Shown: in pieces, positions 21,395 through 41,169 of the stretch
Numbering within the stretch: the first letter of the stretch is position 1
How the letters are laid out: each line of letters begins with the position of its first letter
From: Neodothiora populina
Lineage: Eukaryota
Reading direction: 5' to 3'
Length of the DNA stretch: 64,000 nucleotides
Assembly: GCF_041146345.1 (NCBI RefSeq)
Contig: NW_027191409.1
Span: 1,798,001 to 1,862,000, forward strand
Program-made: the position numbers and the translations under genes
Notes under the pieces: generated by a model
The model's database searches: none
What the model saw: only the letters and a program-made list of their open reading frames with translations
What the model was told of the DNA's origin: nothing

Positions 21395-22546
21395 TCAAGC
21401 CAAGATGCCCGTCCTCGTCCTTTCCTGAGGCCATTTGCCGATCGTATATTGTGAATTGCACATGTTCTCCAACTCCCAGGTTTCTGTAGAAAGATTAATA
21501 AGAGTCGAAAGTGCGACATAGTCAGAGCACTGGGCAGAATAACTTACCTGCACCAAGAACTCCGCGCTCTTGCTCCAGATCTTCCCAGTCGCCGGCTGCG
21601 CCAGCTATAAAGCATGCAGCCATGAAATGGTCATCGGTTCCCTAGCGATGTTAGAGTTTGGTAGATCAGAGAGCAGCAGTCTTGACTAGAACATACGTGT
21701 GCGTGGCGATAGTCAGGATGCTTCATCAGTCTAGTGATCGATCTTCGTAGAGCAGGCCCCCTTTGTTGCGTGAAACAGTCTTCTATGCTTTGTCTGAATT
21801 CCAGCATTGGCTTCTCGGGTGCGCGGAGTTGGGCGAAGTTATCGCGATAGAGAACCATGGGCTCCCAACGATTCCTGTACAAATTGTGAACGGCACCGCC
21901 GGTACCTATCATGAGATAGCCCTCGTTACGCAGAGGTCGCAGAGTCGAGCCAATTTTCATGTGCACATGGGGATCGTAGTAAGCGTTCATGCTGACGATA
22001 GTCGTGGGAGGGCAGCCATTGGGAAACATTCGAATGAGGATGAGGAATGTGTCGTGGATCCAATCGAATTTGTCATTTAGTCCTACTGCCGTCAGCCATA
22101 CCAGTCAACTCGCTGGTTCTTCACTTAATCTTACTTGCATTGAACCCGGCGTCTTGAAGCATCTTGACAACCTTGCCAGAAGTGGGCAGGTCGGGGTTGA
22201 GCTGGTAATGCACATATTTTGACGGGTGAACATATCCCACGGGACTCTTCTCGGGCTTCGGGTTAGCAGAAACGTCGATAGCATCCCCTGATGCATCCCA
22301 GTGAGCGCCCTAGATATTGTTAATGTATAGCAGATCCAGAACAGAACATGGAAAATTACCATCATCACCACGCCTTTGATCCCGTTCGCCAGTGCTTCGT
22401 CGCCACATTGCTTCCAATACGCCGCACTGGAAGAGTCTTCGCCGAGCATCATGGTCGAGCCATGACTGAAGAAATGTACAGGAGTCGGTGCTACTTTGAT
22501 TGTGAGATCGTTATAACAGTCTTTGCAGCCTGCGGAACTCACCCAT
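21395..22546 (-). CDS. Extradiol ring-cleavage dioxygenase, class III LigB / DOPA 4,5-dioxygenase-like
   Basis: Spliced model MAPTPVHFFSHGS..., GAHW, DWIHDT, LRPLRNEGYLMIGTGGAVHNL, AHGTDDHF, ETWEL; stop 21397-21395. Confidence 0.88.
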
Positions 22547-22723
22547 GGCGTGCGATGTTTGGAACTGATGTCAATGTCTAATCTTGCTGCAAGATACAAG
22601 TGCCAAATGCTCCAGCTAAGCAGATGTAAAGTGAACAGTGAATTGTTTATTATTACGGACCTCCTAAGCACATGCTCTCCTTGCGACTACTCCAATTCCA
22701 GTAATGCCAGAATTGTGAGTGCA

Positions 22724-22748
22724 TCGGGAAGTGTGCCCACCTTCCCGA
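22724..22748. promoter_or_regulatory. CGG-containing inverted repeat TCGGGAAG-N9-CTTCCCGA in the dioxygenase/TF divergent promoter
   Basis: Perfect 8-bp arms at 22724-22731 and 22741-22748. Confidence 0.45.
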
Positions 22749-22971
22749 CATTTATACTTCGCCCCGGCCGCCACAAAGTGGGGGCAGCTGCGGGGTAGAA
22801 GCTAACGAGCTTCGCGGCCGTTCCACATTTACATTCCAGTCACTTGAACGAGTCGGAACGTCAACCCCCACAGCGCTTCTCTCCTCCACACATGTCGACA
22901 AGAGCAGGACAGGTTTGCCGACAACGACTCGATTCCGTAGCTGCACTCAGGCGGCCTTTTGTTAGTGGGCG

Positions 22972-25855
22972 ATGAGTGCTTACGATACAACATCGACTTT
23001 GGGGAAGCGCAGCCATGAACAGGCGGATCTCTCTACCCCTGCCACAGATAGGCTGTTCCAATGCAGCGAGTGTGGCAAAAGCTATTCTCGTGTTGACCAT
23101 CTAGCCAGGTATGTTTCTATTGGTTACAAGAATTGGCCCCTGCATTCTCACAAGTCGACAGGCATGTCCGGCTCCATACCAAGGTACAGACATATAAAAA
23201 TCTTCTCAGGAAATGTCTCTCGGTAGGGACCTCAAATCTGACACTGATCAGGAGAAACCGTATTCTTGCGAGACCTGTGGGAAAGGGTTTGCCAGGGCGT
23301 AAGTATCATAGAGCGGTCCCCTTCCCCCCTGTCTCCATTTGAAAGGGCTCATAGTCATTCGTAGAGATCTTCTGAAGAGGCACGTGCTCGGTCATGACAC
23401 TAGGGGTGACCATGAGCAAGCTCGAAAGAAACGAACGCCTGTTTCTACGCGTGTAGCCAAAGCATGTGAAGCATGCGCGGATCTGCATCTCCGGTGCGAC
23501 GAGCACAAACCGTGCTCGAGATGTGAGAAGAAATCACTGAAGTGCATCTATGGCGGATCTCCCGTCCCAGGAAATGTGAAGGCTACTACTAACGACGGGA
23601 TGAGTGTGGTCGAAACCCAAGATGGTCTACCTGACGCAGTTGTACAAGAGAATACTGCGCCCGCTCTGACCGAGATGAGTTCTCTCCCTCCGATTGCTAT
23701 CAATACATATCCTGAGCAGCCTTACGACGTGCAAGACATGCACACTTCTGTCGACTCTGGCGGTGATGGCAATTTCAATTACGCTGCGCATACACCCTAC
23801 CCCTTCATAGATGCAGGAGGCGCTGATAATCCATGCGAAGCGGACGTCAATTTAATGGCAAGCTATCTGCAAAGTATCATGGGTCGAGGAGATCCGGACA
23901 TGACAGTGGCTCCAGGACAACTATCGGGGACCTGGACACCGAGGAATGTCTTCGACTTTGGTCAAGACACAAATTTAGAACTCAGCGATGTGGACCTTGG
24001 CTTCCTGAATATCTACAACCTCCAGAATCCATTCGCAGACTTCGTGCCAAGTCCAGATGCAACGCAATCTGTGCAAGGCTCGGCGGCCAGCAATCCGCCT
24101 TCAGCTCTTGCTGGCGAATCACTGCAACGCCGATCAACCTGGAGGTTCAGGCCTGTAGTGCAGGATAGCTCCGCCAGTGAACAGCAGAACCTGTCTCTTC
24201 CAACAGGAGAAGCGAACAAGAAGGTTCTGGTCGAACGCAGGATGACCGCCGAGCCCTTGTCGTACCACATGAGGGATCGGATACTTGCAATACTGATCTC
24301 CTCATGCCGTGGGTCAAGTGTTCCTAGATTTGTCCTCTGTTTTCCCTCTCTTGAGCTTCTTGATAGCCTTCTTCAGTTCTATCTTGCATCGAAGGTTGCC
24401 ACTTTCAGTGGTCTTGTTCATCTCCCAACCTTAAGTCTACCAGATCTGCGTCCGGACTTGGTAGCGGCTATGATCGCTGCTGGAGCGACACTAACTCCAG
24501 ATGCTTCCTTGCAAAAAATTGGCTTCGCTATACAAGAGGCTCTGCGGGTCGCAGTACCCGAGCTTGTGGAAGCAAACAATACCTTGATCGCAGATCTACA
24601 ATGTCTGCAGTGTATGGTAATTTGTCTTGGAATAGGGTTGTGGAGTGGCAACTCACGCAAGATGGAACTATCCGAGAGCTTCTTGCAACCTTATCTGACA
24701 ATGATCAGGCGTCGCGGCTGGTTCCTTCGCAGTGCGTATCCTGACATCACGCCTTTGTCTTCAGACGAAGGATCTCGTCTTGAGGAAAAATGGTCTGCCT
24801 GGGTCAGTCAAGAGTCCAGGAAACGCCTTGTATTCTCTTTCTATCTCCACGCTGTGAGGCAGTCGATATCTCTTTTCACCAATCCATTGATATCTTACGC
24901 AGAAATGGGACTTCCATTGCCAGCAGTCTCGGACCTTTGGCTGGCACCTTCTGCTTCGCAATGGAAGGTGAAGCTCCTATCCACTTCCGATGCCACACCT
25001 TCTCTTGTGGATGTGCTTCATGATGTCGACATCCTCGCAGATTCAGGCACTCGATTCAGCACTGTGCTATCAAGCGAACTAATCCTCGGCTCGGCTTGGG
25101 GGCTGGTCTGGGAGTATAGGCAGATATGCTCTGTCATGAGAGGCAAACACACTCAGTGGAGCACTTCCAGCTTAGTTTTGTCCTCGAGACTTACAGAACT
25201 CAGTAAGCTTTTGGAATGCATCCGGATCAGTGCTCCTACAGATCCGAAAACCACACTGTTTGTGGAGCTGCTCCTCATGCACCTTTATGTTCCGCTCGAA
25301 GAAGTACACCTGTTCGCTGGCGCCGAAGGCTATGAAGAAGCACGGAGAGTATTCCCACAGCTAGAAGACTGGGCGAAAACTTCGGCATCCCGCGAGGCTG
25401 TGTTTCATGCCGCTCAGCTTGTCTCAGCAGCTCGCAATATGGGTCAGGGTTGTCTACGCGACTTTTGGGCCATCGCGGTTTATCAGGCCGCTCTCACGAT
25501 GTGGACATACGGCGTCATAACGAGCTCTGGAGACAGCGACCCGGATGGTAACGCCCGTAGCATCGCGACACCAACATCAGCACCGAAACGTGCGGATAGT
25601 ATCGCTGTGTTGGATTCAAATGGCAGCAGTGGTAGTCAGCGATTCATTGCAATGAATCGTGGTCAAGGGGCAATAACTGGATATTCAAATAACGAAAGGA
25701 AGGGCATGGTCCTGTTGTCCGATCCATCGGCGATCATGAAGGCACTGGTCGAGCTCCTTGAAGCCAATCACAAGATGCAGCACTTGTTACCGCCGCTGGT
25801 AACTAATCTGGCATCATTAATGAACGGGCTACAGGTAGCCGTAGCTGATCAATAA
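22972..25855 (+). CDS. Transcription factor with two C2H2 fingers, a Zn(II)2Cys6 cluster and a fungal TF middle homology region
   Basis: [49 protein letters not shown] (spliced, includes a 22-nt exon at 23162-23183), then CEACADLHLRCDEHKPCSRCEKKSLKC; W..QESRKRL, LPLP...LW.A. Confidence 0.92.
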
Positions 25856-26134
25856 GTAACACCGACATGAGAACAAAGTGGTATAAAGAGAAGCACCACT
25901 CCATCATGTCTATAAAAAGAATCCGACATCTCAGATGCTTGAAGCTCTCAAAATTGAGATCACTCCTGGTTTTGCCAAGATAGAAGCTACTGCCGAGTGA
26001 TGTGTATTATCTCGGTATTTCAATCAACGTGTTATGTGTTGCAGATATATATCAAAGTCAATATCATCTCCCATATACCGCATCTCACAAAACAACCCTA
26101 AACACTCATGCATGAATTCTTCTACTTAACCCTA

Positions 26135-28026
26135 CTACGCCTTGGGAGGCACGATGGGCAGAGTTACATAATTCGAAAACTTGTCTCCGAAATGGATGTG
26201 GTTCGTCCCCCGTAACTTGTCCGGCGATCTAGAAGGATGATTAGTCACAACATTTTCGTGTAGCTGATGATCTAGTATGACTCACCGATCGGTAGCATCA
26301 TGGTGTCCGAAGATGCCCGAGCCTTGAGTGTCACCACTCGACACCTCGAATACGATCTTGCCGCCTTTCTCAACAACGACATTCGTGGGCCAGATCTCAA
26401 TGTCTACAAGATAAATCTCGCCGGGCAACACGGGCAGAACATCAGTGCTGAGATATTCTCTCCAGGGAAGATAAGGCCTGTGCTTGTAATGCTCCGGGTT
26501 AGTCTTGCGCATGGATACACGCAGCCATCCCTTCACCAACGGAACGGGGTCTCCGGCAGTGCCTGTGTAGAAGACTTCTGTTCCGGCGGGCGAGATGTGG
26601 CGAAGTGTGACGAAAAGATCGATGTCTGTGGGCGTGGGTCCTGTTGTGTCCTGGGTCAAGGATACGTTGAGATGTGCAGTGACGTGTCCAGTGATCTCGG
26701 TTTCTTCTGTAAAGGCCGGAGTGGTGAACTGAATGAGTTCGGGCTTTTCCACAGTTCCAAGGGCGCGGTAGCCCAGTTTTGCTTTTCCGACAGGTGGTTC
26801 GGTGACCAGTTCATTTTTCGGGGTAAGGTAGTAGTTTTTGTACTGGGTGCGAGCGATCGGCCATTCACTCTCTGTGCGGCGCGGGTATTGCTTCTCGGCG
26901 TCGGCGTCGTTGAAGCCGACGTCGCCCTTTCGCAGTACCATATCTACCATAGGTAGCTTGCCCTTCTGAGACCAGCCAAGAGTGTCCTCGCCTTTGAGGA
27001 ACGCATCCAGAAAGCTCTTCTGGACCTCGACCTCTTCGTCGTAGTAGAATGGCAGGTCATGACGCCCAGTGATACACCTGAGGTATTTGAACTCGGATCC
27101 AGCGTGTGTGAAACCTTCGATGTTGCCTCGGAGATGAAGTAGAATGCCTCCCCAGTTGGCAACGGAGAGTAAAGGCACCTTAATGTCTCCCATGTCGTAC
27201 TCCTTCGAGGCATAGTATGCGTCATCTCTGAACCGATTCACGACGTTGTCCTGTGTCTGGTCCTGAAGGTTGGCTTTTCGCTCTTCCTCGGAGAGATCTC
27301 CTTCGATGGTATCAGGGCCCCAATTGCTCGCTGATCGGCCAGGACGGCCATACTGGTTTGTGATTACTTGGCGATTCCACCAGAACTTGATGAATTGGTT
27401 GGAAAGAATGCCGCCGTGACGACATCTGTCGCGGTAGTAGTCTGACATACCCTCCCAAGGGACCATGGCAGCCAAGCCTTTGGGGTTTCTCGCAGCCACT
27501 CGCCACTGAGAACCAGCATAGTAGCTGATACCAAGGAGTCCGACTTTCCCAGTCGACCAGGCTTGCTCGGCACACCACTCGACGACATCGAAGAAGGCTT
27601 CGGAAGTTCCACGGGACATGGTGTCGAGAACACCGGGTGACTGACCAAGGCCTCGTTCATCTGCACGCACAACTGCATAACCGTGCGAAGTCCAGAACTT
27701 TGGATCTGGGGTCTCCCACGCGGAATGCTCGCTCTTGTGCTTCGGGTTGACTTCCTCATAACTCTTTGGATGGAACAGCGAGTATGGGATATCCTTGCCG
27801 TAACTAAGAGTCGTCAGGACTATTGTAAATTATGCTCGTCTGTCTCTACTCACGGTCCATAGGTTACAAGCACAGGAACCTTGGTTGAATCCGATGTTTT
27901 CGGTCGATATACATTCACGCGGACAAGTCCTTCGCTTGATTTGAGTTGGACAGTAGCATTTTCCTCGTAGATATAAGGAAAACTGTCCTTGTCGACCTTG
28001 TGGAGGTCAAGCGTCTTGTTAGGCAT
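26135..28026 (-). CDS. CocE/NonD family (peptidase S15-like) alpha/beta hydrolase, no signal peptide
   Basis: NVYRP, PVLVTYGPYGKD, WETPDP, D.RG.G.SPG, nucleophile elbow GISYYA, GRHDLP, EWPIART and a C-terminal PepX-like domain; two introns. Confidence 0.92.
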
Positions 28027-28230
28027 GCTGGCTGTATGGGAGTACGATAGGTCTCGATTCTTTGGATCCAGTCAACAATCTTGCTCAGCGAGGATCCGTG
28101 GGGGTTTTGTTTAACATTCGGATCTATTTTACCCGGCTCTGACCACCTTTCCCACTTGCGGAGTTTGAGGTGATTGAGGTGATTATGCCTGGTCGGCCCA
28201 CCATGGTGGAGTGCGGAGTCGCGGGGAGGC

Positions 28231-28243
28231 CCTCCACATCCCG
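28231..28243 (+). promoter_or_regulatory. Cluster promoter motif CCTCCACATCCCG (copy 1, hydrolase/cupin promoter)
   Basis: Exact 13-mer, preceded by GCGGGG-N4. Confidence 0.75.
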
Positions 28244-28465
28244 AAGTCAACGACCCACATCGTTTTGGCCGTTGGCCGAGGACAACGCATGTGAATCATG
28301 ATGGCAGTACGTCTGGTCCTACTTCTAGCTACATCTCTCACGTCTACCAGTTGGGACTTGACTGTTTCTGTAAACACTTTCTGAGAGGCGACTTGTTGAA
28401 CCTGAACGCGAACCATTTCCAAACCCACCTCAACTACTCGTCATACCAAAATAGATCGCATAACC

Positions 28466-29064
28466 ATGCCTTCACCACTCCCAAACTTTCAGCGACTGAT
28501 CACTGGCCACAGCAAGGATGGAAAATCAATCCTTGTAGCAGATGAACAAGCGCCATGGGACGATAATGTCGAAGGAGGCAATGCCGCCTTCTCGTTGGCA
28601 TACACAACTTCGTCTACCCCAGTCGATATGAATGCCGACAATGATTTGAGCAAGTACCGAGATTATCTGGTTAAACCACCAGGACTTGTTGAGAAAGGTG
28701 GGTCAGTCTTGAGATTCGTGGTATGTAATGAATTATATCCAGCAATGATAAGATGAATTGCTGATCGTCGACAAAGGACATGGCACCTGGTATCATATCA
28801 CCCATGCACCGAACAGTATCCATCGACTATGGCATTGTTATACTCGGACGAGTCGAGCTTGTTCTTGATAGCGGGGAGACTAAAGTCATGGAACCCGGAG
28901 ATGTATGCGTCCAACGTGGAACGATGCATGCTTGGAGGAATGCGTCACAAACCGAATGGGCCAGGATGATGTATGTCCTACAGCCTTCATTGCCTGTTGA
29001 GATCGAGGGAAAGCCTTTGGAGGAGGAACTGAGTCACATGAAAGGAGTCAGAAAGTCGTCGTAG
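28466..29064 (+). CDS. Cupin-2 domain protein
   Basis: R.ITGH..DGKS, intron 28721-28776, SPMHRT.SIDYGIV, GD.CVQRGTMHAWRN.S..EWARM. Confidence 0.9.
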
Positions 29065-29247
29065 TTCCAATATACAGCAGTACACATATGTAAGCATTTT
29101 GAGTTGGAAAGCATTTTCATAAAACTTTTAACCACATCTGCACCGTAGCATTTCATTCATGTCAAGTTTAGAGATTGTCAGGTACAATTCGGAATAGAAA
29201 TTACTACAAGAGACCCAGTGCAACAAAGACTCACTCCATCCTCGCAA

Positions 29248-29683
29248 CTAGTACTCTCCTCCTTTCTTCCATTGAAAAAAAGTATCGTTGAATTTCCCTC
29301 CGGTAGCTCTCCACATCCTATTGGCGGCCTGAAATATGTTAGACTGCTGTAGCAGCGAGTTGCAGGACGGGAGATGTAAGCATAGAACTCACCGATACGA
29401 CTCGAATACCATTGAACATATTCCAAAGGAAAGCTCGCTCAATGTTGTTCTGATAGACGCTCCTGTATTGTACGTCCAGGTCGTAGTCTATAGGTCGGTG
29501 ATCAGGAACGCGGCGATAGCCACTCTCCCACGTCTCAGGGTTGTTTCCTGTGCCTGTCGGTGCTGCACGAGGATTGAGATCGTGTGTAGCGTCTTCCACT
29601 TCAGCGCTGTGATGAATGTCGTAGTCTGCTAGTGTACGCGCGAACGCGTAGGTGGTCTGATTTTCGGTGACTGTTACAGACAT
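29248..29683 (-). CDS. Small protein of unknown function (123 aa)
   Basis: Exons 29683-29393 and 29328-29248; intron GTGAGT..CTAAC..CAG; divergent from the ALDH-like gene. Confidence 0.75.
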
Positions 29684-29914
29684 GTTGAGGTTAATGGGTC
29701 GTGGAAATGGGTTTGATGGCAATACAAACAATCGAAGTTGTCGTTTGGAATACAAGAGTACGATGTGCTATAGGAGGATCAACCCCGAGACCACTTGAAC
29801 AATACCAGTGATTACTATTCGCACCTCCCCACGCTGTGAACGTAAGCTGAGCATGTTTGAGCGGAACCCCACTTTCTCCTCCACCACTAGGAAAGTGTAT
29901 TTTGGGGGATGGCA

Positions 29915-29927
29915 CGGGATGTGGAGG
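29915..29927 (-). promoter_or_regulatory. Cluster promoter motif CCTCCACATCCCG (copy 2)
   Basis: CGGGATGTGGAGG on the + strand between the small-protein and ALDH-like genes. Confidence 0.75.
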
Positions 29928-30081
29928 ATCTCCAAATCTCCCCAAATCGTCTCCTCGGACCTTGGTATCAATTGTGATATGGTGAGTGCCCTAGTGATAA
30001 ACTTGTGTATTATTCTCGTTCGTGGCCGCTGATTGCAAACACCCGGGTTTCCTGCCAGCGACACATACGACGACGACATTA

Positions 30082-31774
30082 ATGGCTGGACAACAGATTG
30101 AGAATATCCGAGCGGCAGCTGTCGATGGCCGAACACGCAATGTGATCTATCGTCGAAGTCAGCTTGGGAAACTCCAAGCAGCACTCTCGCAAGAAGCCGA
30201 GACCATGATATCTGCCATAGCACAAGATACAGGATGCACCATGCTAGAGAGTCGAGTCGAGTATTACTTGACCATGCTTCAAGTCAAAGACCGTTACCTT
30301 GAGCTTGATCCTGCTGGAGAACTCGTGATGGAATACTCCATCGCCGAAGGTAGAGATGCCTCAGAATCACGGGAGGGTGTTGGGATCGTCCTCATCTCCG
30401 CAGTTGTGGACCACAGTCCTTTTTTCTCGGTGGTCGCGCCGCTTAGCGCAGCGATTGCAGCTGGAAATTGTGTCATACTACAGGTGGGATGTCCATTTGG
30501 CAAGAATTGAATTTCACCGACTGACAGCCAATCAGGTTGAGAACACTGTTCGCAGCCTGCCGAATGCTTTGAGAAAAGCATTGCGAGTGCTGGACAATGA
30601 CACTTTCGGCATCATTCAGCAGCCTTTGGCGGATGCAGACAAATCTGCAATAAGTCTCGAAGTGGTCCAAAGCAGTCAAGTCACATCGAATTCGAGAACG
30701 GATCAAATTGTATCTGGCCAGAATCGAAGAACAGTTGCCGTTGTCGACAGGACTGCGGATATGGAGAAGGCAGCAGAAGCTCTGCTATTTGCTCGCTTCG
30801 GCTACTGCGGACAATCTCCCTATGCGCCGGATATCGTACTGGTGAACGAGTTTATCAAAGAAGACTTCTTGCAGACACTAGTCAAGAAGTATTCTCACTT
30901 GGACCAAGATCCCATGCCGGGCTACCAAAAGTCGGAAAAATCTGGAAGCAAAGACACGAAGCTTGAAAAGTCCATTGCCGATTTGCAACGGAACGGCAAC
31001 GTCAAGCTTGTCAACCAAGCTGCCAGAGGAGCTATCCTAGACATCAAAAACAGGTCAGCCGAGTGTTCCCTATCGTAAAGTATCAGTGCTAACCATCCGA
31101 GCAGAGGTTCTCAAACATTCTTGAAGAAGATTAGAGCACCCTGCATGGTCGTTCATGGTTTCAAAAGTCTCGATGACGCGATCGATGTCTTGAACAGGTC
31201 AGTTTTTCTCATCAGTCAGACATGGTGATAGCAATGACTAAACAAGCGATAGCGACGGCCAAGAGAATCTGGCTGCCTACCACTGGGGATCGGCAGGACA
31301 ATGCAGATATCTGAGTCAATTCATTTCGGCTCGAGTCACGTTCGTGAACCACATACCCGCAGACCTTCTAGGTAAGTACGAGACACACCTCGAGTAACTG
31401 CTCAGCAACTGACTATGCATTCCGAAGTTGGTCCTGCATTCCCGGATAATGCCATGATAGATGCATCTGTCAGATTTCCAACGTCCCTGTTCTCAAAGCC
31501 AACGCCAGCTTTTGTCACGCAATCGACCAGGGCTACAGTAGTCGCCGATGCTCTAATGGCACCATCCACATCGGAGAGAAGATTGCTGCTGGAAAGATTG
31601 AGGGATGAGGCGATGAAAGAGCTGCCCGACTACAAGAGGAAGCAAAAGTCGCGTGCGGCATTTGGATTCTTCGAACAAGCCATGCTTATCAATCTGGGCC
31701 TTGTGCTTCTGTCGACAGTCACAGTGGTAAGCGGGGGTGTCTATGGGTTCAAACATGGATGGCTGCGACGATGA
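30082..31774 (+). CDS. ALDH3/fatty-aldehyde-dehydrogenase-like protein lacking catalytic motifs, with C-terminal membrane anchor
   Basis: R..QL.KL, GVGIVLI, PLSAAIAAGNCVILQ, GQSPYAPDIVLV, SLDDAID; five exons with an open frame; hydrophobic C-terminus. Confidence 0.85.
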
Positions 31775-32010
31775 AGAAGAAGCTTGATCTGCAGCCTAGT
31801 GTAATCAATAAATTACAAAATACCATGTTCTATGTTCCATGTTCTATATTCGCTCAGCATTCGTTACACTATATTTTTCACCTAAATTTGAAATTATCAA
31901 CCCAGTTTGATGATAAGAAAGTAATGGTAATCATATCGAGATGTTCTCTATAGAAAGACCTGCTGTAAAGAAGCACTGGTTACAATTTCGTATGAAGAAT
32001 ACTATGTAAT

Positions 32011-34347
32011 CTACTCGATCCTCCTTGCGCTACTGACATCTCCGACCATTGGCACTTCCTTCACAGACGCTTCCAAAATCTCGTAAATTGGAACTTTGCT
32101 CCACTCATCCGCGATATGATGCAGTGTCGGCAAGGTCTCCCAGCTGCCTGGGGTACATCTGATGCTTGCAGACGTCGATAGCAGATCCTCAGATGTCTTA
32201 TTTTGCGGTTTATCATTTTGTGCAGTATCGTCCGATCCGGCAGGCTTGGTGTTGGGTTTGTCGAATTCTGCAAACACGGCATACTCGGCATCAGCGACAC
32301 CTGGCTGACCCACCGCAGGTACATATCGGTACATAAGAGTGCCCTTGTCAGTGTTGGCTTTCGGAGCTTTCGAATTTGCACTTCCATCATCTTGGTCCGC
32401 GTTACGTGTTCGAGGTTGTAGATCATTCAGTTCCAGCTCGACGAATGGACTTCCTCGCCAGCTTAATTTGACGGACCTCGATGTGTCGGAAGTCGAGATA
32501 TCGATCGTGCACCAGAGCTTCGGAGCAGCAAGCTCTTCTCTTCCAGTGATAATCGGATCTGCCAGATCCTCGAACAAGATTGGTAAGAACGTGCCTGTGA
32601 GTACCTCGCCATCCTTCTTCTTGTATTGAACGCCATGTATATACAGACCGCAATGGTTATAGCCGCCGTCTCCAAGCCATACCATATTGCGTAGAGTACA
32701 GCAGGCGATGCTTGCTTCCGCAAAAGTGCCTGGTGAAATGAATGAGAATTGATCGGTTGGCAAAAGGTTCTGCAAGAATGTTCGCGAGGTCTTGAAACGT
32801 ATCGACGTGACTGTCTGATTTTGAGCAGCATATGAGTGCTGGCTCAAGTCCCTGTTCAACGGCTGACGGGGACCTGGGGATGGACCAAATGAGATGGGTT
32901 GGCGATAACGAAGCGCAGTGCGTGTATTCAGATACTTCTTCAGTGCATGAGTTGAATGATCCCACTCGTCATGTCCGAAGTTGTAGTTGGTGAATGTCAT
33001 AGCTGAGAAAAAGATTAGCACTTGTCGGTGAAAGTACAACATAAAATCAACTTACGATCATATGTCAGTCCCCGCTTGGCTAACTCCGCCGGACTCATAC
33101 CGCTACGTCGGGTAGCTTCCTGGATGTGGTCGGCCCTTTCTTTACGACAACTCTCATAGAGTCTCAATCGTTCAGAAATGGCCTCCTTGGGGGTGCCCAG
33201 AGGAAGTAATGCAGCGAGTGACACGGCGTCCTCCATTGCTTGACCTCCACCCTGCGCTTGATGAGGCAGGAATGGATGGGCAGCATCACCCAACAAAGCC
33301 ATGCGCCCAGTGACCCATGTGTCCAGGACATCCATGTCCAAGAGCGTCCATACTTTCAGCGATTCTTCAGGAGCCTTCTCCAACAAGGCCCGGACCTGAG
33401 GTGCAAAACAAGATCCGATCTCGAGCATTCGTGCCTTGTTGCCTGCTTGGTTCCAGCCTTCCTCAGGACTATTTGATCGTGATTCATGGCTCGGATGTAT
33501 CAGGAGGAAGTTGATCAACGTGTTGTTGACACACGGGTATACTACTACGCGCCGATCATCGGCAAGGATCATGCATAGTAACCCTTCAGTTTCCACAAAT
33601 TCCTTACACTGAGGATCCTTCATGATTTCCTCCTTTGGCACAAGAAATCTATACGCACTGTGGCCGGAGTCTCGCGGCCTGAATTTCTTACTCTCGGGAA
33701 GGTATTTACGACAGATAGACTGCCATATGAGTCAGAATGATGGTTAGTGATGGCTTGGGACGGAGGACTTACATGTACACCATCTGCTCCGAGGACCAAG
33801 TCTCCGCGAACCGTCTCGCCATCTGCAAGCGAGACCTCGGCCTTGGAGGGGTTTACAGACTCAACTCGACTGGCCAGTCGAAGTACTGCAGGCTTGCCTT
33901 TACCTCCTTTGCTCACGACCTCTTCGCGAAGCATAGTGTGCAGATGTGCTCTGTGTACCAGATGCCATGGCTGTCAAGGTGAGTCAGTCACGATCGCCGA
34001 TCTTTGGTACATATACGTACATGTTGCCATATAGTGTTCATCGCCTTCAATGGTAATTGGAACGCCTTCTTTCCAGAACGACCATCGTACTGTGCGAGAC
34101 CGCACATCTCATTGCCTCCTATCGTTTCGAGATAGAGACCCATTCTTCGCAAGAGCCCATTAGCATTTGGGGCCATATGGATAGCTGCTCCGGTCTCATT
34201 GCTGAATCGAGATGTCTCTAGAAGAGTGACATCATGTCCCTGTTGTCGCAATGCAAGCGCAGCAGTCAGTCCGCCGATACCAGCGCCGACAATTACAATG
34301 GACAGAGGGGCTTCTGCCTCTGCTGTGATCCCGTTTGTGTGTGGCAT
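32011..34347 (-). CDS. Salicylate-hydroxylase-like FAD monooxygenase fused to an acetoacetate-decarboxylase-like (ADC) domain
   Basis: IVGAGIGGL, GADGVHS, LLGDAAHPFLPHQAQGGGQAMED. The last intron joins in frame to ...GREELAAPKLW... and LPTLHHI. Confidence 0.9.
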
Positions 34348-34533
34348 TTTGTTGTGCGAGTGCGAAATCTAGTCGATTGAGGGAAACAAAGGCGAAATGA
34401 TTGGTTTTGTTCTTACGCTCGCTTTCGTCAACTGGATCTGTGGAATGTGGAGTAAGTGATGTAAACCGTTCTTAATGGCGCGGAACTCTAACACAGCGAC
34501 AACTGGTGGGGGTGAGTGATTATGCGGGGGATT

Positions 34534-34546
34534 CCTCCACATCCCG
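34534..34546 (+). promoter_or_regulatory. Cluster promoter motif CCTCCACATCCCG (copy 3, monooxygenase/FAH promoter)
   Basis: Exact 13-mer, again preceded by GCGGGG-N4. Confidence 0.75.
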
Positions 34547-34734
34547 GCTGTGGCATTGCCGCTGTAGCCGACATATGGTAGGCATTTTGGTCTTCATCAG
34601 ACCTCGGGAACAAAGCGAACTTGAAATAGCATACTGTAGTAGTATGCTTTAGTCAATGCTCATAAAGACAGGTTTTTAAGTTCTTCTGCATAAAATCGAT
34701 ATCCTGAATATCAGTCATTTAGATATCGCCCAAG

Positions 34735-36116
34735 ATGACGGCAAGTAACCAGGATTGGAGTGCCCATTTCGGAATACAGAACATACCCTTCGGTGTTGCA
34801 AGCTCGAGCAAACACAACACTCCACAGACTGTATCTCGCTATGGTAATAGCATTATATTTCTCGCCGAGTTGGGAGAGTCGTTCTTGGCGTCTGTTCAAC
34901 TCCCACAAGATGTTTTCCTCGAGTCCACATTGAACAAGTTCGCTGCGCTGGGAGGCTCGGTGCAGCAAACAGTTCGTGGCGCACTCCAAGCAATGATTAA
35001 GGCAGATTCCATCCCACAACACAGTATCGAGGATGTAAGTATGGTTCAAATGCACCTTCCGGTATCTGTCGGCGATTTCACCGACTTCTCTTGCTCGGAG
35101 TACCACAACCTGAATGCAAGTCAGGCCGTCACGGGCAGACGAGGCTTACCACCAACGTGGGGCTTCATACCTCCCGGTGAGTCATTATCAAAACACATCG
35201 AATAGCACTTTTTTTTGATGCAATGAAGGCTACGCAGGAAGGTGCTCGAGCATTGCTGTATCTGGTAGTCCCGTCAGGCGACCGAAAGGTCAGTTTTGGG
35301 CAGATGCCGCCTCAGCGATGAAGGGAGAGAACCGCTCGATCCTTTACGGCCCGTGCAAGAAGATGGATTACGAAATGGAACTAGGAGTGATTGTAGGAAG
35401 ACCGGTTCCTTATGGCGAGACGATGACAGCTCAGGAAGCGGAAAACCACATTTTTGGATATGTAATCCTCAATGATTGGAGTGGTGAGTCCTCCGTCATC
35501 ACAGATGAACTGGTGATCGGAGCTAATTGAACCTCTAGCCCGGGATATCCAAACATTCGAGATGATTCCGCTCGGACCATTGAACTCCAAGAATTCAGGT
35601 ACAACCATGTCACCATGGGTGATCAGTCCTGACGCGGTGGCACCATTTCGAGGTGTCAGTAAAACGCTGTTCCGTAATGTGGCACCCAATCTCGTGCAAT
35701 CACATGACAAAGTCCTTGCTGTCGATATGAAAATCACCGTGACGCGTCCAATGCCAGAGAAAGAAGGTGAGGTGGTAAGAGACAACACGGCTGAGGTTAT
35801 GAGTCGATGCAACAGTTCTGTGATGGCATGGTCTTTCGAACAACTGATTGCCTATCAATCAAGTGCCGGATGTGGTCTACGATCAGGCGATCTGCTTGGC
35901 ATAGGAACAGTGAGCGAGGAGGAGGATGGAACACGAGGTTGCCTACTCGAGGATAACATTCCATCGTTAGGAAGAGCGAGAGGCTTCGTTCAAGATGGCG
36001 AGACCGTGGAACTCAGTGGCTATTGCGGAGAAGGGGTTGGATTTGGAGACTGCAGAGCTCAATTGTTACCAGCATCTGGCGATAATGTCTGGACCCCCAT
36101 AAATCCGAGCAAATAG
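34735..36116 (+). CDS. Fumarylacetoacetate hydrolase family protein
   Basis: FGIQNIPFG, MHLPV.VGDFTDF, MDYEMELG, LNDWSARDIQ, GPLNSK, GDLLGIGTVS, GVGFGDC; two introns. Confidence 0.92.
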
Positions 36117-36629
36117 ATACAGACACCAGCATTTGGATCGTTCAGCTTGACTCACTCCCAGTCTCTAGACGCAAGACAACACAGCAGGCATCATGGCATC
36201 GAGATTTCTCAGACGAAGTTCTGACTATACTACAATAATTCCACGGTGAGGTGCTCGGACAACGACGTGCATTAGAGAGCTTACGCTGCTACATATACCC
36301 TACTTTTACAGCACAACAAAACCCACTCCTGCACCAGTATGGTACATCTTTGCTTGCGTAAGTATGCCTTTGATGCCATGTCCTGGTTCGAAATATTACC
36401 CAGGTGCATTGCAGACCCATGTACCTGCTATTATTCCATATTCAGCATGCGACTTCGACGCAACTTGGCCCCAATCGATGACCACCTTGGTTGTACACAT
36501 GTCGCTCCCTGTCGCCCCACAACCTTTGGGTAAAGGTATATCTAGAGTCGAATTGTGCCGTGCGACCCCGCTATATTACTCCATATGAGATTAAGCTCCA
36601 ACGACATACTGTATAGTGTACTTGCCTCT

Positions 36630-36642
36630 CGGGTTGTGGGGG
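36630..36642 (-). promoter_or_regulatory. Near-match of the cluster motif (CGGGTTGTGGGGG, 11/13) upstream of the MFS gene
   Basis: About 200 nt upstream of ATG 36838; keeps CGG-N3-GTGGRG. Confidence 0.6.
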
Positions 36643-36837
36643 TGCATCTTGTGGGGTCAAGACCAGATGTCTGGGGGCCCCGCATTACAATCTGGAGAAG
36701 AATCCGGGGATGGAGAGGTTAGCCGGGGGAATGACCACGGCTACCCTTGTGTCGGCAACGACCTCAAATAGGTGCTCACATCTCGATCATGCCTCCATTC
36801 CCTGACTCTCATTTCATCAGCGTATCTGCGAAGAACC

Positions 36838-38696
36838 ATGGGTGGCTACAGAACAGCGTTTGCACTGTCGAAGACAGAGGTGCGAGATGCCAGACCTTTG
36901 GGCACTGCTGTACTGATTGGTATCAACATCACGTCTCTGGCCATGATCAACCAGCTAATGTGTGAATAGACCATGAACTTGTGCGGACCACTACTGGGAA
37001 CCATGAATATGTCGAGGACCATCTGCAACTGGTACCGTAAGTGACAGATGATATCGTATCTTTTCTTGTGACGATGGCTAATCCTTCTCTAGCGAACCCT
37101 CGCAAGATCCAGCAGATCCACTGAACTTTCCCATGTGGAGGAAACTTGCAATTCTCTCCTGCATGAGTCTGTATGCGTTCATAACAAACGTGTCCAGTGC
37201 CATCATCAGTAGTGCGTTGCCCGAGCTGGTCACGGCTTTTGCGACCTTTTCGAGGACGGGCCCTCCCACCGGGCTGGTGCCCTTCTCGTCCTTGACCCAT
37301 CTTATCGCCGTCAACATTCTGATGCTGGGAGCTTCCAACATCTGGTGGGTCCCGCTCGGCAACACCTTTGGCCGTCGTCCGATCATCCTTGTGAGCATCC
37401 TCCTCTTGACAGGTTGCTCTGTATGGTGCGGGGCCGCACAGTCTTATCCCAGCCTTCTAGCGGCTAGGGTATTCCAAGGTGAGGAAAGCCATGTATCTAT
37501 GCTTGTCTGACCACAGCTGACACATTACTCAGGCATTGGTGGCGGTGCAGCCGACACGCTCGCTGCTGATGTTGTTGGCCAGATCTTCTTCGTACATCAA
37601 CGTGGCCGAGCTATGGCCATATATACCATGATGCTCGTATCCGGCTCCCTCATTGGAGGGTTGATCGGAGGATATGTCACAGCCAGCTTGAGCTGGCGCT
37701 GGACATGCTACATCCCTGCAATAATGAGTGGTTGCCTTTTCGTCTTGACCTTCTTCCTCGTCCCGGAGACTCTCTTCGATAGGACCAGTGCAATCGCAAT
37801 TGCACATGAGCCCATCGCCGAGGAGGACGACGTCAATGAAAAGTCCAATACAAGCCGTATTGAGTCTGCTCCCCACCATGCTTTCCCACCATACACATTT
37901 GCCAGATCTCTCAAGCTCGGGACATATCGCCCTGGCCTTCTCAAGCGTCTCGTTACTCCCTACACGACTCTGTTGTTCCCAGGAACATGGATGGTCATGC
38001 TGCAGTATGGTGGTCTTGTCGGTCTTACAGTCACCGCAAGTACCATTGCTCCTGTCCTGCTAGCTCAGCCACCATATCTATGGGGTGCCAACGTGGGTCT
38101 CATCAACGCTGGAGGCCTTGTTGGAAGCATACTTGGAGCTGTCTATACATATCTAGCTGCTGACTGGTGGGTCAAACGTGTGGCAAAGAGAGACTCACAT
38201 GGGTATGGTGAGCCAGAAGCTCGTGTCCCACTCATGTTCCCAGCTCTTGTGATAGCCTTTGCCGGAGCGCTTGCCTTCGGATTCTCAGCCCAAGCTCTTA
38301 CACCAAAGGCATGGATTGGACTGGAGTTTGGATCTGGCATGATCGCATTTGGACTGATGCAAGTTCCATCTATCGGGTTCAACTACCTTATCGAGTGCTA
38401 TGGTGGATGGGCGTCGGACTGCTGTAAGTCTATTCTATGTCAGCCAACTACCTGCAGAGTACTTGTACTGACTATAAACAGTCTTGATGGTTGTGACTTT
38501 CCGTGCTGTTATTGGTTTCGCGTGGACATTCTTCGTCGGTACCTGGACAGCCTCGGCTGGGTTTGCCCTTCCGTTCGGCATCTTTGCCCTTCTGATGGGC
38601 GTTTTTGCCTTGACCGCTGTACCAGTCTGGCTTTGTGGCAAACGTTTCCGAATCGCAGGCGAGAACCTCATACAGAAAGAATTCGCCGTGAGATGA
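36838..38696 (+). CDS. MFS transporter (DHA1/Hol1-like)
   Basis: PLGT, P.PSQDPADPLNFP.WRK, FGRRP, ARVFQG, FFVHQRGRAM, VPET, EPEARVP; four introns. Confidence 0.9.
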
Positions 38697-39836: not shown

Positions 39837-41169
39837 ATGGCAGCAAATTCGCCGGATGTCATAATCGTCGGTGCCGGGATCATAGGGCTCATACTGGGTC
39901 AAGCTCTCAAAAAGGTGCATATGATAGAATGTTAGATGGCATCAAAATCTTTGACGCGCAGAATAGGCAGACATACCGTTCGTGATTCTCGAGAGAGACG
40001 AGAACGCCTCAGCTCGAATTCAAGGCTGGGCTCTGACATTGCACTGGGGTCTGGAGTACCTGAAAGAATTGTTGCCGGTCGAAAATTTAGATGCTGTGAA
40101 AGAGTGCCAGGTCGACCCCAACTTCGCTGCCAATGACACAGGCAAATTCCTTTTTCTGAACCTCGAGGATGGTACGACCAAATTTGAGATTCCAGTCCGA
40201 GAAAGGTGGAGGGTGAATCGAGACAAATTGAGAAGAGCTCTATGACGCGGGCTTGAGAAGAAGGTATTGTGGTCAAAGCATGTACAAAGCGTTTGCTTTT
40301 CCGAGGAAGACGCATCTCCTGTCGAGGTCGCTTGCGCCGATGGTACTATTTGGCACAGCAGATTCATCGTCGGCGTTGATGGCAGTAGCTCAAAGATTCG
40401 TAGACTTCTCTTACCGGACCTGCATGCTTTGACACAATTACCTGTCCGATTGACAGGAGTATCTGTCAAATTGACGCCTGAGCAAGCCGAACCTTTACGC
40501 TCCATAGACCCGTTGCTCTTTCAAGGACTTCACCCCTCAACCAGGACGTATCTTTGGTTCTTGATTATGGACGCCCCACCTGTAAGCAGTACAGAAAGTA
40601 CAGATGATCTCAATTATCTTGTCCAAATCAACATGAGCTGGCCGTATCTCTCACCTGCAGACGAGGTTCGCCATACTGATGCCGAAAGGCTAGACAATAT
40701 GCGGCAACGAGCCAAATGTCTGGAATCAAGGTTCAAGCGAGCCGTTAACGACATTCCGACAGGGACTTCAGTGTCTGAAGTGAAGCTCATGCATTGGAAC
40801 CAGGTAAAGTGGGACAACCATAGCCGAAGAATAACACTCGCGGGCGATGCAGCCCATCCGATGACAATGTGTCGGTCTCCCCCCTTCATCCTATCCCTCG
40901 ATTTTGCCAGCACTAACAGTATCATATCAAGATCGAGGCGAGGCGGCCAATCATGGGATCCGTGACGTTTATTCCTTAATGATGTCACTTCGTGAGTGGC
41001 ACGAAATGGCACAGCTTCGTCGATCCTGGAGCATTATGAAGAGGAATCGAGGCAACGTACGCTGGATGCAGCGGAATTAAGTAGGCAAGCTTGTCTCGAT
41101 GCTCACGACTGGGAAGCTTTGACCGAAGACAGTGCCATACGTGTACGAGGAGTCCAGAACGACCTCTAG
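39837..41169 (+). pseudogene. FAD-dependent monooxygenase pseudogene
   Basis: IVGAGIIGL, VGVDGSSS.IR, TLAGDAAHPMTMYRGEAANHG, SRQACLDAH. In-frame TGA at 40243-40245 and a frameshift near 41005. Confidence 0.85.

What the first reader, a model, noticed from the sequence alone, without database searches (positions are those of the whole stretch)
21395..38696. Intact nine-gene putative aromatic/xenobiotic degradation cluster with an unusual enzyme set
Seen: nine adjacent intact genes, eight of them in four compact head-to-head pairs (about 390-440 bp apart): dioxygenase/TF, CocE hydrolase/cupin, 123-aa protein/pseudo-ALDH and FMO-ADC/FAH, plus an MFS. No PKS/NRPS backbone gene is present. Established: group A flavoprotein monooxygenases hydroxylate phenolics, LigB-class enzymes cleave catechols extradiolically, and FAH-family enzymes cut C-C bonds of ring-fission products. 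Inference: an uptake, de-esterification, hydroxylation, meta-cleavage and C-C hydrolysis route for a plant aromatic. I know of no characterised fungal pathway with this combination; the well-known fungal routes use intradiol or homogentisate/gentisate cleavage. The substrate cannot be read from sequence.
Basis: partly seen in the sequence, partly recalled or inferred. Interest (0 to 1): 0.85.

Follow-up and report, generated by a model that had tools for sequence, protein, structure and literature searches.

The report
Fungal phenolic ring-cleavage gene cluster
Nine neighbouring fungal genes, also kept together in a related fungus and partly in distant moulds, most likely break down a plant phenolic by a ring-cutting chemistry well known in bacteria but little studied in fungi; the compound is still unknown.

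Summary
In detail: nine intact genes, four head-to-head pairs 387-439 bp apart. New here: (1) all nine recur in one 17.7-kb metagenome locus with the pairs reshuffled, and dioxygenase and FMO-ADC are linked in 12 of 18 comparable fungal species across three classes; (2) a 13-bp element sits in three of four divergent promoters, 3 of its 4 genomic copies; (3) catalytic residues are intact in five enzymes and lost in the ALDH-like protein. Similar, partial gene sets were reported as induced by pine phloem extract (Grosmannia) and in sorghum (Bipolaris), uncharacterised. Best reading: hydroxylation, DODA-type extradiol cleavage, then redox-free hydrolytic dismantling of a beta-keto acid or pyrone by cupin, CocE, FAH and the ADC domain. 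It works like the bacterial fde/ifc flavonoid route (shared cupin family) but is not a member: different dioxygenase fold, hydroxylase clade and hydrolase. The substrate is not shown. Verdict: real, widespread, uncharacterised variant of a known kind of catabolic cluster; partly seen before.

The parts
21395..22546 (-). DODA/YgiD-type (LigB fold, class III) extradiol dioxygenase, 292 aa, 6 exons
   Evidence: Model; Pfam LigB; PDB YgiD and 4,5-DOPA dioxygenases E 1e-6 to 5e-4; H48, H113, H169, H237 in 98 of 98 homologues, H11 in 63 of 63 that reach it
22972..25855 (+). Transcription factor, two C2H2 fingers + Zn2Cys6 + fungal-specific domain, 898 aa, 4 exons
   Evidence: 48% identical copy head-to-head with the dioxygenase in L004
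26135..28026 (-). CocE/NonD (S15) serine hydrolase, 594 aa, 3 exons
   Evidence: Pfam; TIGR00976 above cut-off; S151, Y152, H281 invariant in 8 of 8 aligned; 75-86% identical in L004; one match in own genome
28231..28243 (+). 13-bp promoter element, CocE/cupin pair
28466..29064 (+). Cupin of the family of PDB 8X0U/3ES1 and of the cupin in fde-like operons, 180 aa, 2 exons
   Evidence: 33-43% identity to the cupins of L027, L028, L029
29248..29683 (-). Conserved 123-aa protein of no named family, 2 exons
   Evidence: No Pfam/NCBIfam; 375 representatives at 50% clustering; AlphaFold2 pLDDT 69, pTM 0.36, one long helix 80-106, no Foldseek match
29915..29927 (-). 13-bp promoter element, small protein/ALDH-like pair
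30082..31774 (+). ALDH-fold pseudo-enzyme with a C-terminal hydrophobic anchor, 492 aa, 5 exons
   Evidence: Pfam Aldedh; catalytic Cys, Glu and the FTGS nucleotide motif absent here and in L004; hydropathy 1.94 at 464-482
32011..34347 (-). Group A flavoprotein monooxygenase fused to an acetoacetate-decarboxylase-like domain, 726 aa, 4 exons
   Evidence: GxGxxG, DG, GD motifs intact; K558 and E553 in 111 of 111 homologues
34534..34546 (+). 13-bp promoter element, FMO-ADC/FAH pair
34735..36116 (+). Full-length fumarylacetoacetase-type hydrolase, 424 aa, 3 exons
   Evidence: Pfam FAA_hydrolase_N + C; PDB FAH E 3e-27; D117, H124, E196, E198, D230, K250, T356, E370 align with a bacterial FahA (their roles recalled)
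36838..38696 (+). MFS transporter, 546 aa, 5 exons; direction unknown
   Evidence: 52-65% identical copy behind the FAH in L004

Best explanation
A self-contained, TF-controlled module that degrades or detoxifies a plant polyphenol by the hydrolytic branch of extradiol (meta) cleavage. Step 1 (inferred): the FMO domain hydroxylates an activated phenol, possibly with loss of CO2, to a catechol or trihydroxy ring. Step 2 (inferred): the DODA-type dioxygenase opens the ring next to a substituted carbon, giving a poly-beta-keto acid that tends to close to a pyrone or lactone, not a semialdehyde. Step 3 (inferred): cupin and CocE reopen or split the pyrone/lactone. Step 4 (inferred): FAH cuts the diketo acid C-C bond and the ADC-like domain, through a Schiff base at K558, decarboxylates or retro-aldol-cleaves the remaining keto acid. 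The MFS moves substrate or a product; the dead ALDH and the 123-aa protein are accessory (anchor, ligand binder or unknown catalyst). The TF most likely binds the 13-bp element (a CGG triplet plus a G-rich hexamer). Shown: genes, residues, linkage, element. Not shown: any reaction, order or substrate. Most likely substrate class: a meta-dihydroxylated ring (flavonoid or chromone A ring, resorcylate, orsellinate), about 0.35 of the total; a simpler hydroxybenzoate or hydroxycinnamate, about 0.2.
For: Linkage: nine of nine genes in 17.7 kb of L004, blocks reshuffled; dioxygenase and FMO-ADC linked in 12 of 18 comparable species. Co-regulation: 13-mer in 3 of 4 divergent promoters, longest shared word in 500 shuffles 10 nt; 3 of 4 genomic copies here; near copies in 3 of 4 matching promoters of L004. 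Intact catalytic residues. No working ALDH, which the semialdehyde branch would need (pathway logic recalled). Nearest solved FMOs are decarboxylating phenol hydroxylases (8X38, E 4e-48). Cupin relatives lie in FMO + extradiol dioxygenase + hydrolase + FAH operons in 3 of 5 loci read, one with the full fde gene order; the ifc cupins act on the pyrone formed after A-ring cleavage (PMC11069340). CocE relatives lie near FAH in 5 of 8 and near beta-keto-acid cleavage genes in 2 more of 8 loci read. Similar gene sets respond to pine phloem extract (PMC3091685) and are induced in sorghum (PMC5722872).
Against: No reaction is measured. The FMO is not an FdeE orthologue (24-27% against 40-48% among FdeE-like proteins) and the FAH gave no tblastn match to the FAH of the fde-order operon L029. 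Six of 18 species pairs were not linked. The element is missing from the FMO/FAH promoter of L004 and only partial (8 of 13) in the dioxygenase/TF promoter here; its G-rich half also fits the CreA consensus (recalled). The published clusters were matched by annotation only, lack FMO-ADC and FAH in their tables, and carry other genes (SDR, galactonate dehydratase); in Grosmannia only the cupin was significantly induced (p 0.03). In A. niger deleting all 17 ring-cleavage genes, LigB types included, left growth on gallate intact, so gallate is not a likely substrate. The MFS looks more like efflux families.
Confidence: 0.62

Rival explanations
1. Naphthalene- or coumarin-type route: a bicyclic diol is cleaved extradiolically, the cupin isomerises the cyclic product, the ADC-like domain acts as hydratase-aldolase on an arylidene-pyruvate, and the fused FMO works late, as a salicylate-type hydroxylase on the released monocycle.
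For: FMO close to salicylate and hydroxybenzoate hydroxylases; invariant Schiff-base Lys; ADC-fold enzymes with 2-oxo-3-enoate hydratase/aldolase activity exist (recalled; the paper was not held); the fusion would join consecutive late steps.
Against: It needs a working aldehyde dehydrogenase between the aldolase and the hydroxylase, and the cluster's ALDH lacks its catalytic residues; no ring-hydroxylating first enzyme is in the cluster.
Confidence: 0.14
2. A tailoring cluster for a fungal metabolite whose backbone is made elsewhere: an aromatic polyketide is hydroxylated, ring-opened to a seco-pyrone, trimmed and exported by the MFS.
For: MFS nearest to efflux families; best solved cupin relative is a fungal-type entry 8X0U (recalled as a biosynthetic cupin); fungal FMOs of biosynthesis also appear among PDB hits; Gluck-Thaler and Slot warn that such clusters may be biosynthetic.
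Against: No backbone-sized frame in the window lists or in L004; FAH and ADC domains shorten carbon chains; bacterial relatives of CocE and cupin sit in catabolic operons; similar sets respond to plant extract.
Confidence: 0.12
3. Catabolism of an N-heterocycle (hydroxypyridine, indole or benzoxazinone type), with CocE as amidase or lactamase.
For: H57 of the FMO (108 of 111) aligns with the His of the 6-hydroxynicotinate 3-monooxygenase motif, where the vanillate and 4-hydroxybenzoate enzymes have Gln; cyclase-family genes lie by 3 of 8 bacterial CocE relatives.
Against: No amidase, deformylase or deaminase in the cluster; the benzoxazolinone-induced clusters of F. verticillioides that I read have other gene sets.
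Confidence: 0.08
4. Chance neighbours, or two unrelated mini-modules side by side.
For: Six of 18 species pairs unlinked; the published clusters list only part of the set.
Against: All nine together after reshuffling in L004 with no shared flanks; one element shared by three pairs; linkage in Dothideomycetes, Eurotiomycetes and Sordariomycetes.
Confidence: 0.04

Closest known systems
Grosmannia clavigera LPPE-responsive cluster 2 (PMC3091685; passages and section 11 read)
   Same: Adjacent S15 peptidase (CocE), ring-opening dioxygenase, weakly matched PutA-family dehydrogenase, cupin and an unknown protein; responds to pine phloem extract; authors suggest degradation of phenolics.
   Different: No FMO-ADC, FAH, MFS or TF in their table; has an SDR; authors found it not conserved in Fusarium or Aspergillus; no function tested; orthology not checked by sequence here.
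Bipolaris cookei Bc_04816-04820 (PMC5722872; passages read)
   Same: ALDH, ring-opening dioxygenase and S15 peptidase adjacent and induced 24 h into sorghum infection.
   Different: Carries a galactonate dehydratase; the induced cupin and salicylate hydroxylase have distant gene numbers; no function tested; orthology not checked by sequence.
Bacterial fde (Herbaspirillum, naringenin) and ifc (Variovorax, isoflavone) A-ring meta-cleavage operons (PMC11069340; sections 14-17, 19 and a supplement search)
   Same: Same functional kit: group A FMO, extradiol dioxygenase, cupin, FAH-family protein, hydrolase, MFS; homologous cupin (33% to the cupin of an operon in fde order).
   Different: VOC-fold dioxygenase there, LigB fold here; FMO of another clade; alpha/beta hydrolase there, CocE here; small FAH there, full FAA type here; no Rieske protein or cyclase here; ADC domain, pseudo-ALDH and small protein only here.
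ARD and SAH classes of predicted phenylpropanoid-degrading clusters, Gluck-Thaler and Slot (bioRxiv 10.1101/184242; passages read, supplements closed)
   Same: Fungal clusters anchored on an aromatic ring-opening dioxygenase or salicylate-hydroxylase-like gene, enriched in plant-associated species.
   Different: Computational only; I could not see the model contents, so this cluster may already be one of their ARD models.
Aspergillus gallate / 1,2,3,5-tetrahydroxybenzene pathway (PMC10832562; parts 2-4 of 6 read)
   Same: Decarboxylating FMO, FAH-like gene, a short protein without domains, MFS and TF; ring fission to a lactone, then hydrolysis to acetopyruvate.
   Different: Ring cleavage by DUF3500, whose two genes lie elsewhere in this genome; no LigB, CocE, cupin or ADC domain described there.
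Decarboxylative vanillate 1-hydroxylase (PDB 8X38) and 6-hydroxynicotinate 3-monooxygenase (5EOW)
   Same: Nearest solved relatives of the FMO domain (E 4e-48, 1e-34); same FAD fingerprints.
   Different: Far below any NCBIfam equivalog cut-off (best 181 of 459 bits); invariant R232 here where 5EOW has His; no ADC fusion there.

Membership tests
fde/ifc flavonoid operon | FdeE/IfcA-type flavonoid 8-hydroxylase | tested here: not met
   24-27% to the FMOs of L027-L029, which share 40-48% among themselves
fde/ifc flavonoid operon | VOC (glyoxalase) fold dioxygenase FdeC/IfcB | tested here: not met
   The dioxygenase is LigB/DODA fold
fde/ifc flavonoid operon | FdeH/IfcD-type cupin | tested here: met
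   33% over 181 columns, E 5e-19, to the cupin at the fdeH position of L029 (gene order). FdeH itself was not available
fde/ifc flavonoid operon | FdeB alpha/beta hydrolase, FdeI small FAH, FdeD Rieske protein | tested here: not met
   No tblastn match at E 1e-3 of any of the nine proteins to those genes of L029
fde/ifc flavonoid operon | Turnover of naringenin or daidzein by 8-hydroxylation and A-ring cleavage | not testable with these tools
   Needs enzyme assay or mutants
Gallate/tetrahydroxybenzene cluster | DUF3500 ring-cleavage gene in the cluster | tested here: not met
   Both PF12006 matches lie elsewhere (C15 and C7:900 kb)
Gallate/tetrahydroxybenzene cluster | Short protein homologous to ATEG_04855 | not tested
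ARD cluster class (Gluck-Thaler and Slot) | Aromatic ring-opening dioxygenase anchor with four or more co-clustered families | tested here: met
ARD cluster class (Gluck-Thaler and Slot) | Match to one of the published cluster models | not testable with these tools
Grosmannia cluster 2 / Bipolaris Bc_04816-20 | Adjacent S15 hydrolase, ring-opening dioxygenase, ALDH-like gene (and cupin) | tested here: met
   By annotation: 4 of the 6 gene types of Grosmannia Table 6 and 3 of the 4 of Bipolaris Fig. 5A
Grosmannia cluster 2 / Bipolaris Bc_04816-20 | Sequence orthology of the members | not tested
   Their sequences were not returned by any search
Class III (LigB/DODA) extradiol dioxygenase | Conserved metal and catalytic histidines | tested here: met
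   H11, H48, H169, H237 invariant; roles recalled from YgiD/DODA
Class III (LigB/DODA) extradiol dioxygenase | Score above the 4,5-DOPA dioxygenase equivalog cut-off | tested here: not met
   79 of 233 bits for homologue P0327: a separate subfamily
Active aldehyde dehydrogenase | Catalytic Cys, general-base Glu, FTGS nucleotide motif | tested here: not met
   also absent in the L004 copy
ADC-like superfamily | Schiff-base Lys in the GRE..PK motif and ADC fold | tested here: met
   K558 in 111 of 111; PF06314, 3CMB, Atlas structure matches
Biosynthetic gene cluster | PKS/NRPS/terpene backbone gene | tested here: inconclusive
   None among the nine and no backbone-sized frame; whole window not scanned with Pfam, and a backbone could act in trans

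The most novel reading that the evidence does not exclude
A central meta-cleavage pathway shared across Pezizomycotina, assembled independently of the bacterial fde/ifc operons from other folds, that destroys the A ring of flavonoids or related resorcinol-type plant defence compounds without any redox step after ring opening, with a new activity for the ADC-like domain and a new catalytic or sensing role for the 123-aa family and the pseudo-ALDH.
Probability: 0.3. Interest if true: 0.8.

Novelty: new variant of a known kind. Interest (0 to 1): 0.58.

Why it matters
A 2025 review of A. niger aromatic metabolism says that most ring cleavage in fungi is intradiol and that extradiol enzymes are less common (PMC12388069, section 11). 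This module gives a complete, testable gene set for an extradiol route: a dioxygenase subfamily with 841 database clusters, an FMO-ADC fusion with 327, and a small protein family with 375, none with an assigned function in what I found. Linked copies occur in Aureobasidium, Zymoseptoria and Fusarium, and similar sets respond to plant tissue, so it may be a common way for fungi to handle plant defence phenolics. The promoter element and the single TF make the inducer search simple. It also offers biocatalysts for lignin- or flavonoid-derived aromatics.

Tried and rejected
RNA evidence: no RNA holder listed; no reads laid. Complex of the small protein with the dioxygenase (idea: a LigA-like lid), using Aureobasidium homologues: no answer, score 0.00, mark 0.34. 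Fold of the small protein: low-confidence model, no Foldseek match, no usable Atlas hit; a membrane helix is not supported (3 of 36 reach hydropathy 1.6). Idea that the dioxygenase is a TanX-like repressor: my recollection was wrong, TanX is AROM-like. Gallate/THB cluster: rejected. F. verticillioides FVEG_03387-03405 (FAH, FAD-binding, cupin, ALDH, with an RPE65-type gene): no ring-opening dioxygenase or S15 hydrolase listed, so not taken as this cluster. Fourth copy of the 13-mer (G000:C4:722099): no catabolic neighbours seen in L002; with one mismatch the motif has 68 sites against 53 for the reversed control, so no regulon could be read. Bacterial counterpart of the whole cluster: GTDB scan with CocE gave 2 distant loci; ADC neighbours in 2 of 8 plasmid records were uninformative; dioxygenase relatives on plasmids only about 29%; FMO plasmid hits were not followed. 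Paper searches with no hit; with hits: 26, 41, 57, 136. Supplement searches for A. niger and A. terreus annotation found none of the terms for this cluster (three files of PMC10512348 not searched). FAMeDB paper: none of six terms. Earlier findings of this scan: nothing. PMC12704424, PMC6320622, PMC10735191, PMC9422121, PMC11303751 and bioRxiv 2021.06.01.446356: passages only, no description of this gene set.
Full report
Observation. The region holds nine intact intron-containing genes. All models translate without stops, with GT..AG introns of 50-68 nt, and two of them equal database proteins letter for letter (P0058, P0059). In order: dioxygenase (-, 22546-21395), TF (+, 22972-25855), CocE (-, 28026-26135), cupin (+, 28466-29064), 123-aa protein (-, 29683-29248), ALDH-like (+, 30082-31774), FMO-ADC (-, 34347-32011), FAH (+, 34735-36116), MFS (+, 36838-38696). 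The four divergent pairs are 425, 439, 398 and 387 bp apart. The genome is a 24-Mb fungal assembly; the nearest named relatives of the small protein are in Aureobasidium, Delphinella and Myriangium. CocE, the ADC domain and the small protein each gave one match in the genome; the dioxygenase gave one more, distant.

It is a conserved unit. A metagenome scan with the small-protein alignment gave 5 loci out of 54 candidate stretches. The only long one, L004 (20.3 kb), holds all nine homologues in 17.7 kb at 41-86% identity, with the four head-to-head pairs kept but the blocks in another order and one extra small gene. The four short loci hold only neighbours from the same set: ALDH-small protein-cupin-CocE (L003), small protein-cupin (L005, L006), ALDH-small protein (L007). 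The flanks of the window's cluster have no tblastx match in L004, which sets its borders. For wider range I read locus tags, accession numbers and contig lengths by eye. Of 18 species in which both a dioxygenase and an FMO-ADC could be compared, 8 were 1-8 numbers apart (Meristemomyces frigidus, Elasticomyces elasticus, Pyrenula ochraceoflavens, Fusarium subglutinans, F. anthophilum, F. oxysporum MN25, Zymoseptoria tritici, Aureobasidium pullulans), 4 shared a contig length (Myriangium duriaei, Sphaceloma murrayae, Aulographum hederae, F. beomiforme), and 6 were not linked (Fusarium sp. DS 682, F. acutatum, Xylaria curta, Penicillium odoratum, P. atrosanguineum, Sarocladium strictum). Some unlinked pairs may be paralogues or different assemblies: Fusarium has at least two FMO-ADC clusters. 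I left out pairs from clearly different strains. Only the best 120 of 327 and of 841 hits were listed, so this is a sample. The small protein is two numbers from FMO-ADC in Sarea resinae and three from the dioxygenase in one A. melanogenum assembly, but unlinked in Bathelium and Vermiconidia and 20-43 numbers away in two other Aureobasidium records.

A shared promoter element. An exact 13-mer lies in three of the four divergent promoters (28231, 29915, 34534); the fourth has its first 8 bases. In 500 dinucleotide-preserving shuffles the longest word shared by three promoters never exceeded 10 nt. The genome has 4 exact copies, 3 of them here, and 0 of the reversed control. L004 has copies with 1-2 mismatches in 3 of its 4 matching promoters, none in FMO/FAH. 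Read on the other strand it is a CGG triplet, three bases, then GTGGAG. The TF has two C2H2 fingers with contact residues R-D-H-R and R-D-L-R and a Zn2Cys6 domain; by the recalled finger code and the recalled CGG preference this fits the element. The hexamer also fits the recalled CreA consensus, so binding by the cluster's TF is inference.

Enzymes. Dioxygenase: DODA/YgiD type, histidines 48, 113, 169, 237 in 98 of 98 homologues and H11 in 63 of 63 that cover it, but a homologue scores only 79 of 233 bits on the DOPA-dioxygenase model, so it is its own subfamily. FMO domain: all FAD fingerprints intact; nearest solved relatives are decarboxylating hydroxylases of vanillate, 4-hydroxybenzoate, 6-hydroxynicotinate and salicylate, and tropone monooxygenase; H57, R232 and Y236 are conserved. 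ADC domain: K558 and E553 in 111 of 111; the fusion is common in Ascomycota. CocE: nucleophile S151-Y152 and H281 invariant in 8 of 8. FAH: full fumarylacetoacetase type with metal and catalytic residues kept. ALDH-like: catalytic Cys, Glu and the FTGS motif are absent here and in L004, and it ends in a hydrophobic anchor, so 'pseudo-ALDH' is right. Small protein: 375 representatives, from Dothideomycetes, Eurotiomycetes, Sordariomycetes and Sarea among the 8 of 10 looked-up clusters that carry names; no family, no fold match. MFS: nearest NCBIfam models are efflux families, all below cut-off.

Clues from bacteria. Of 109 plasmid records with a cupin match I read 5: three are operons with FAD monooxygenase, VOC dioxygenase, alpha/beta hydrolase and FAH (L027, L028, L029), one has cupin-FAH-epimerase only (L026), one lies near ligAB (L030). 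L029 repeats the fdeA-J order listed in the supplement of PMC11069340, and its cupin is 33% identical to ours. In that paper the ifc cupins convert the pyrone that forms after 8-hydroxylation and A-ring cleavage of daidzein. Of 284 records with a CocE match I read 8: 5 have an FAH-family gene within about 10 kb, 2 a DUF849/keto-acid cleavage gene, 1 an extradiol dioxygenase with CoA-transferase and citryl-CoA lyase. These loci were hand-picked from the top hits. They point to a CocE step on a ring-fission product, not a first de-esterification. Against membership: the FMO is 24-27% identical to the FdeE-like proteins, which share 40-48%, and no other gene of L029 is matched.

What is in print. 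PMC3091685 (passages, section 11) describes a Grosmannia clavigera cluster of S15 peptidase, predicted protein, ring-opening dioxygenase, weak PutA-family dehydrogenase, cupin and SDR, responsive to pine phloem extract (only the cupin significant), proposed to degrade phenolics and not followed up there. PMC5722872 (passages) shows ALDH, ring-opening dioxygenase and S15 peptidase adjacent and induced in sorghum. I matched both by annotation only. Gluck-Thaler and Slot (passages) catalogued ARD-anchored clusters; their models are in supplements that I could not see, and this cluster may be among them. The gallate pathway (PMC10832562, parts 2-4 of 6) uses DUF3500, which lies elsewhere in this genome. 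Ten searches of the open library found no biochemical or genetic characterisation of this set; subscription journals are mostly not covered.

Mechanism. The kit has one hydroxylase, one extradiol dioxygenase and four enzymes that add water or break C-C bonds, but no working dehydrogenase. From established meta-cleavage chemistry (recalled), that fits cleavage beside a substituted or hydroxylated carbon, giving poly-beta-keto acids and their pyrones, as in the orcinol and fde/ifc routes. I commit to: FMO hydroxylation, extradiol opening, pyrone or lactone opening by cupin and CocE, C-C hydrolysis by FAH, and decarboxylation or retro-aldol by the ADC domain (0.62). Genes, residues, linkage and element are shown; every reaction, the order and the substrate are inferred. 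Rivals: a naphthalene/coumarin-type order with the FMO acting late (0.14), tailoring of a fungal metabolite (0.12), an N-heterocycle (0.08), chance (0.04).

Verdict. What remains new is the nine-gene definition, the shared element, the link to the fde/ifc cupin family and a testable redox-free meta-cleavage model. New variant of a known kind; interest 0.58.

Noticed in passing
window:39837-41000 (+): A second FAD-dependent monooxygenase-like gene 1.1 kb right of the cluster has an in-frame TGA at 40243-40245 between two open stretches; likely a pseudogene; no match in L004.
   Followed up: partly
window:18902-20596 (+): Intronless 565-aa TPR-repeat protein just left of the cluster; not shared with L004.
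   Followed up: partly
L004:7255-7740 (-): Extra small gene with a CxxC motif (thioredoxin-like by recalled motif, not tested) inserted between MFS and ALDH-like gene in the related cluster.
   Followed up: no
L004:9792-9814: In the ALDH/small-protein promoter of L004 and L003 the element forms an inverted pair, as for a dimeric regulator.
   Followed up: no
window:22864, 28098, 34506, 36636: An 8-mer ACCCCCAC is shared by four of five cluster promoters, the MFS promoter included; it fits a CreA-type or C2H2 site (recalled); significance not tested.
   Followed up: no
G000:C15:104718-105695 and G000:C7:900183-901181: Two DUF3500 genes, candidates for the gallate/tetrahydroxybenzene pathway in this genome.
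   Followed up: no
L029:2044-12209: A plasmid of a rhizosphere Burkholderia carries an operon in the full fdeA-J order plus an EthD gene.
   Followed up: partly
L017:11096-14944, L023:9770-13361, L024:7313-11587: A recurring bacterial CocE + FAH (+ cyclase) unit of unknown substrate.
   Followed up: partly
window:21067-21081: A run of G (about 11, after GACG) in the gap left of the dioxygenase; no role suggested.
   Followed up: no
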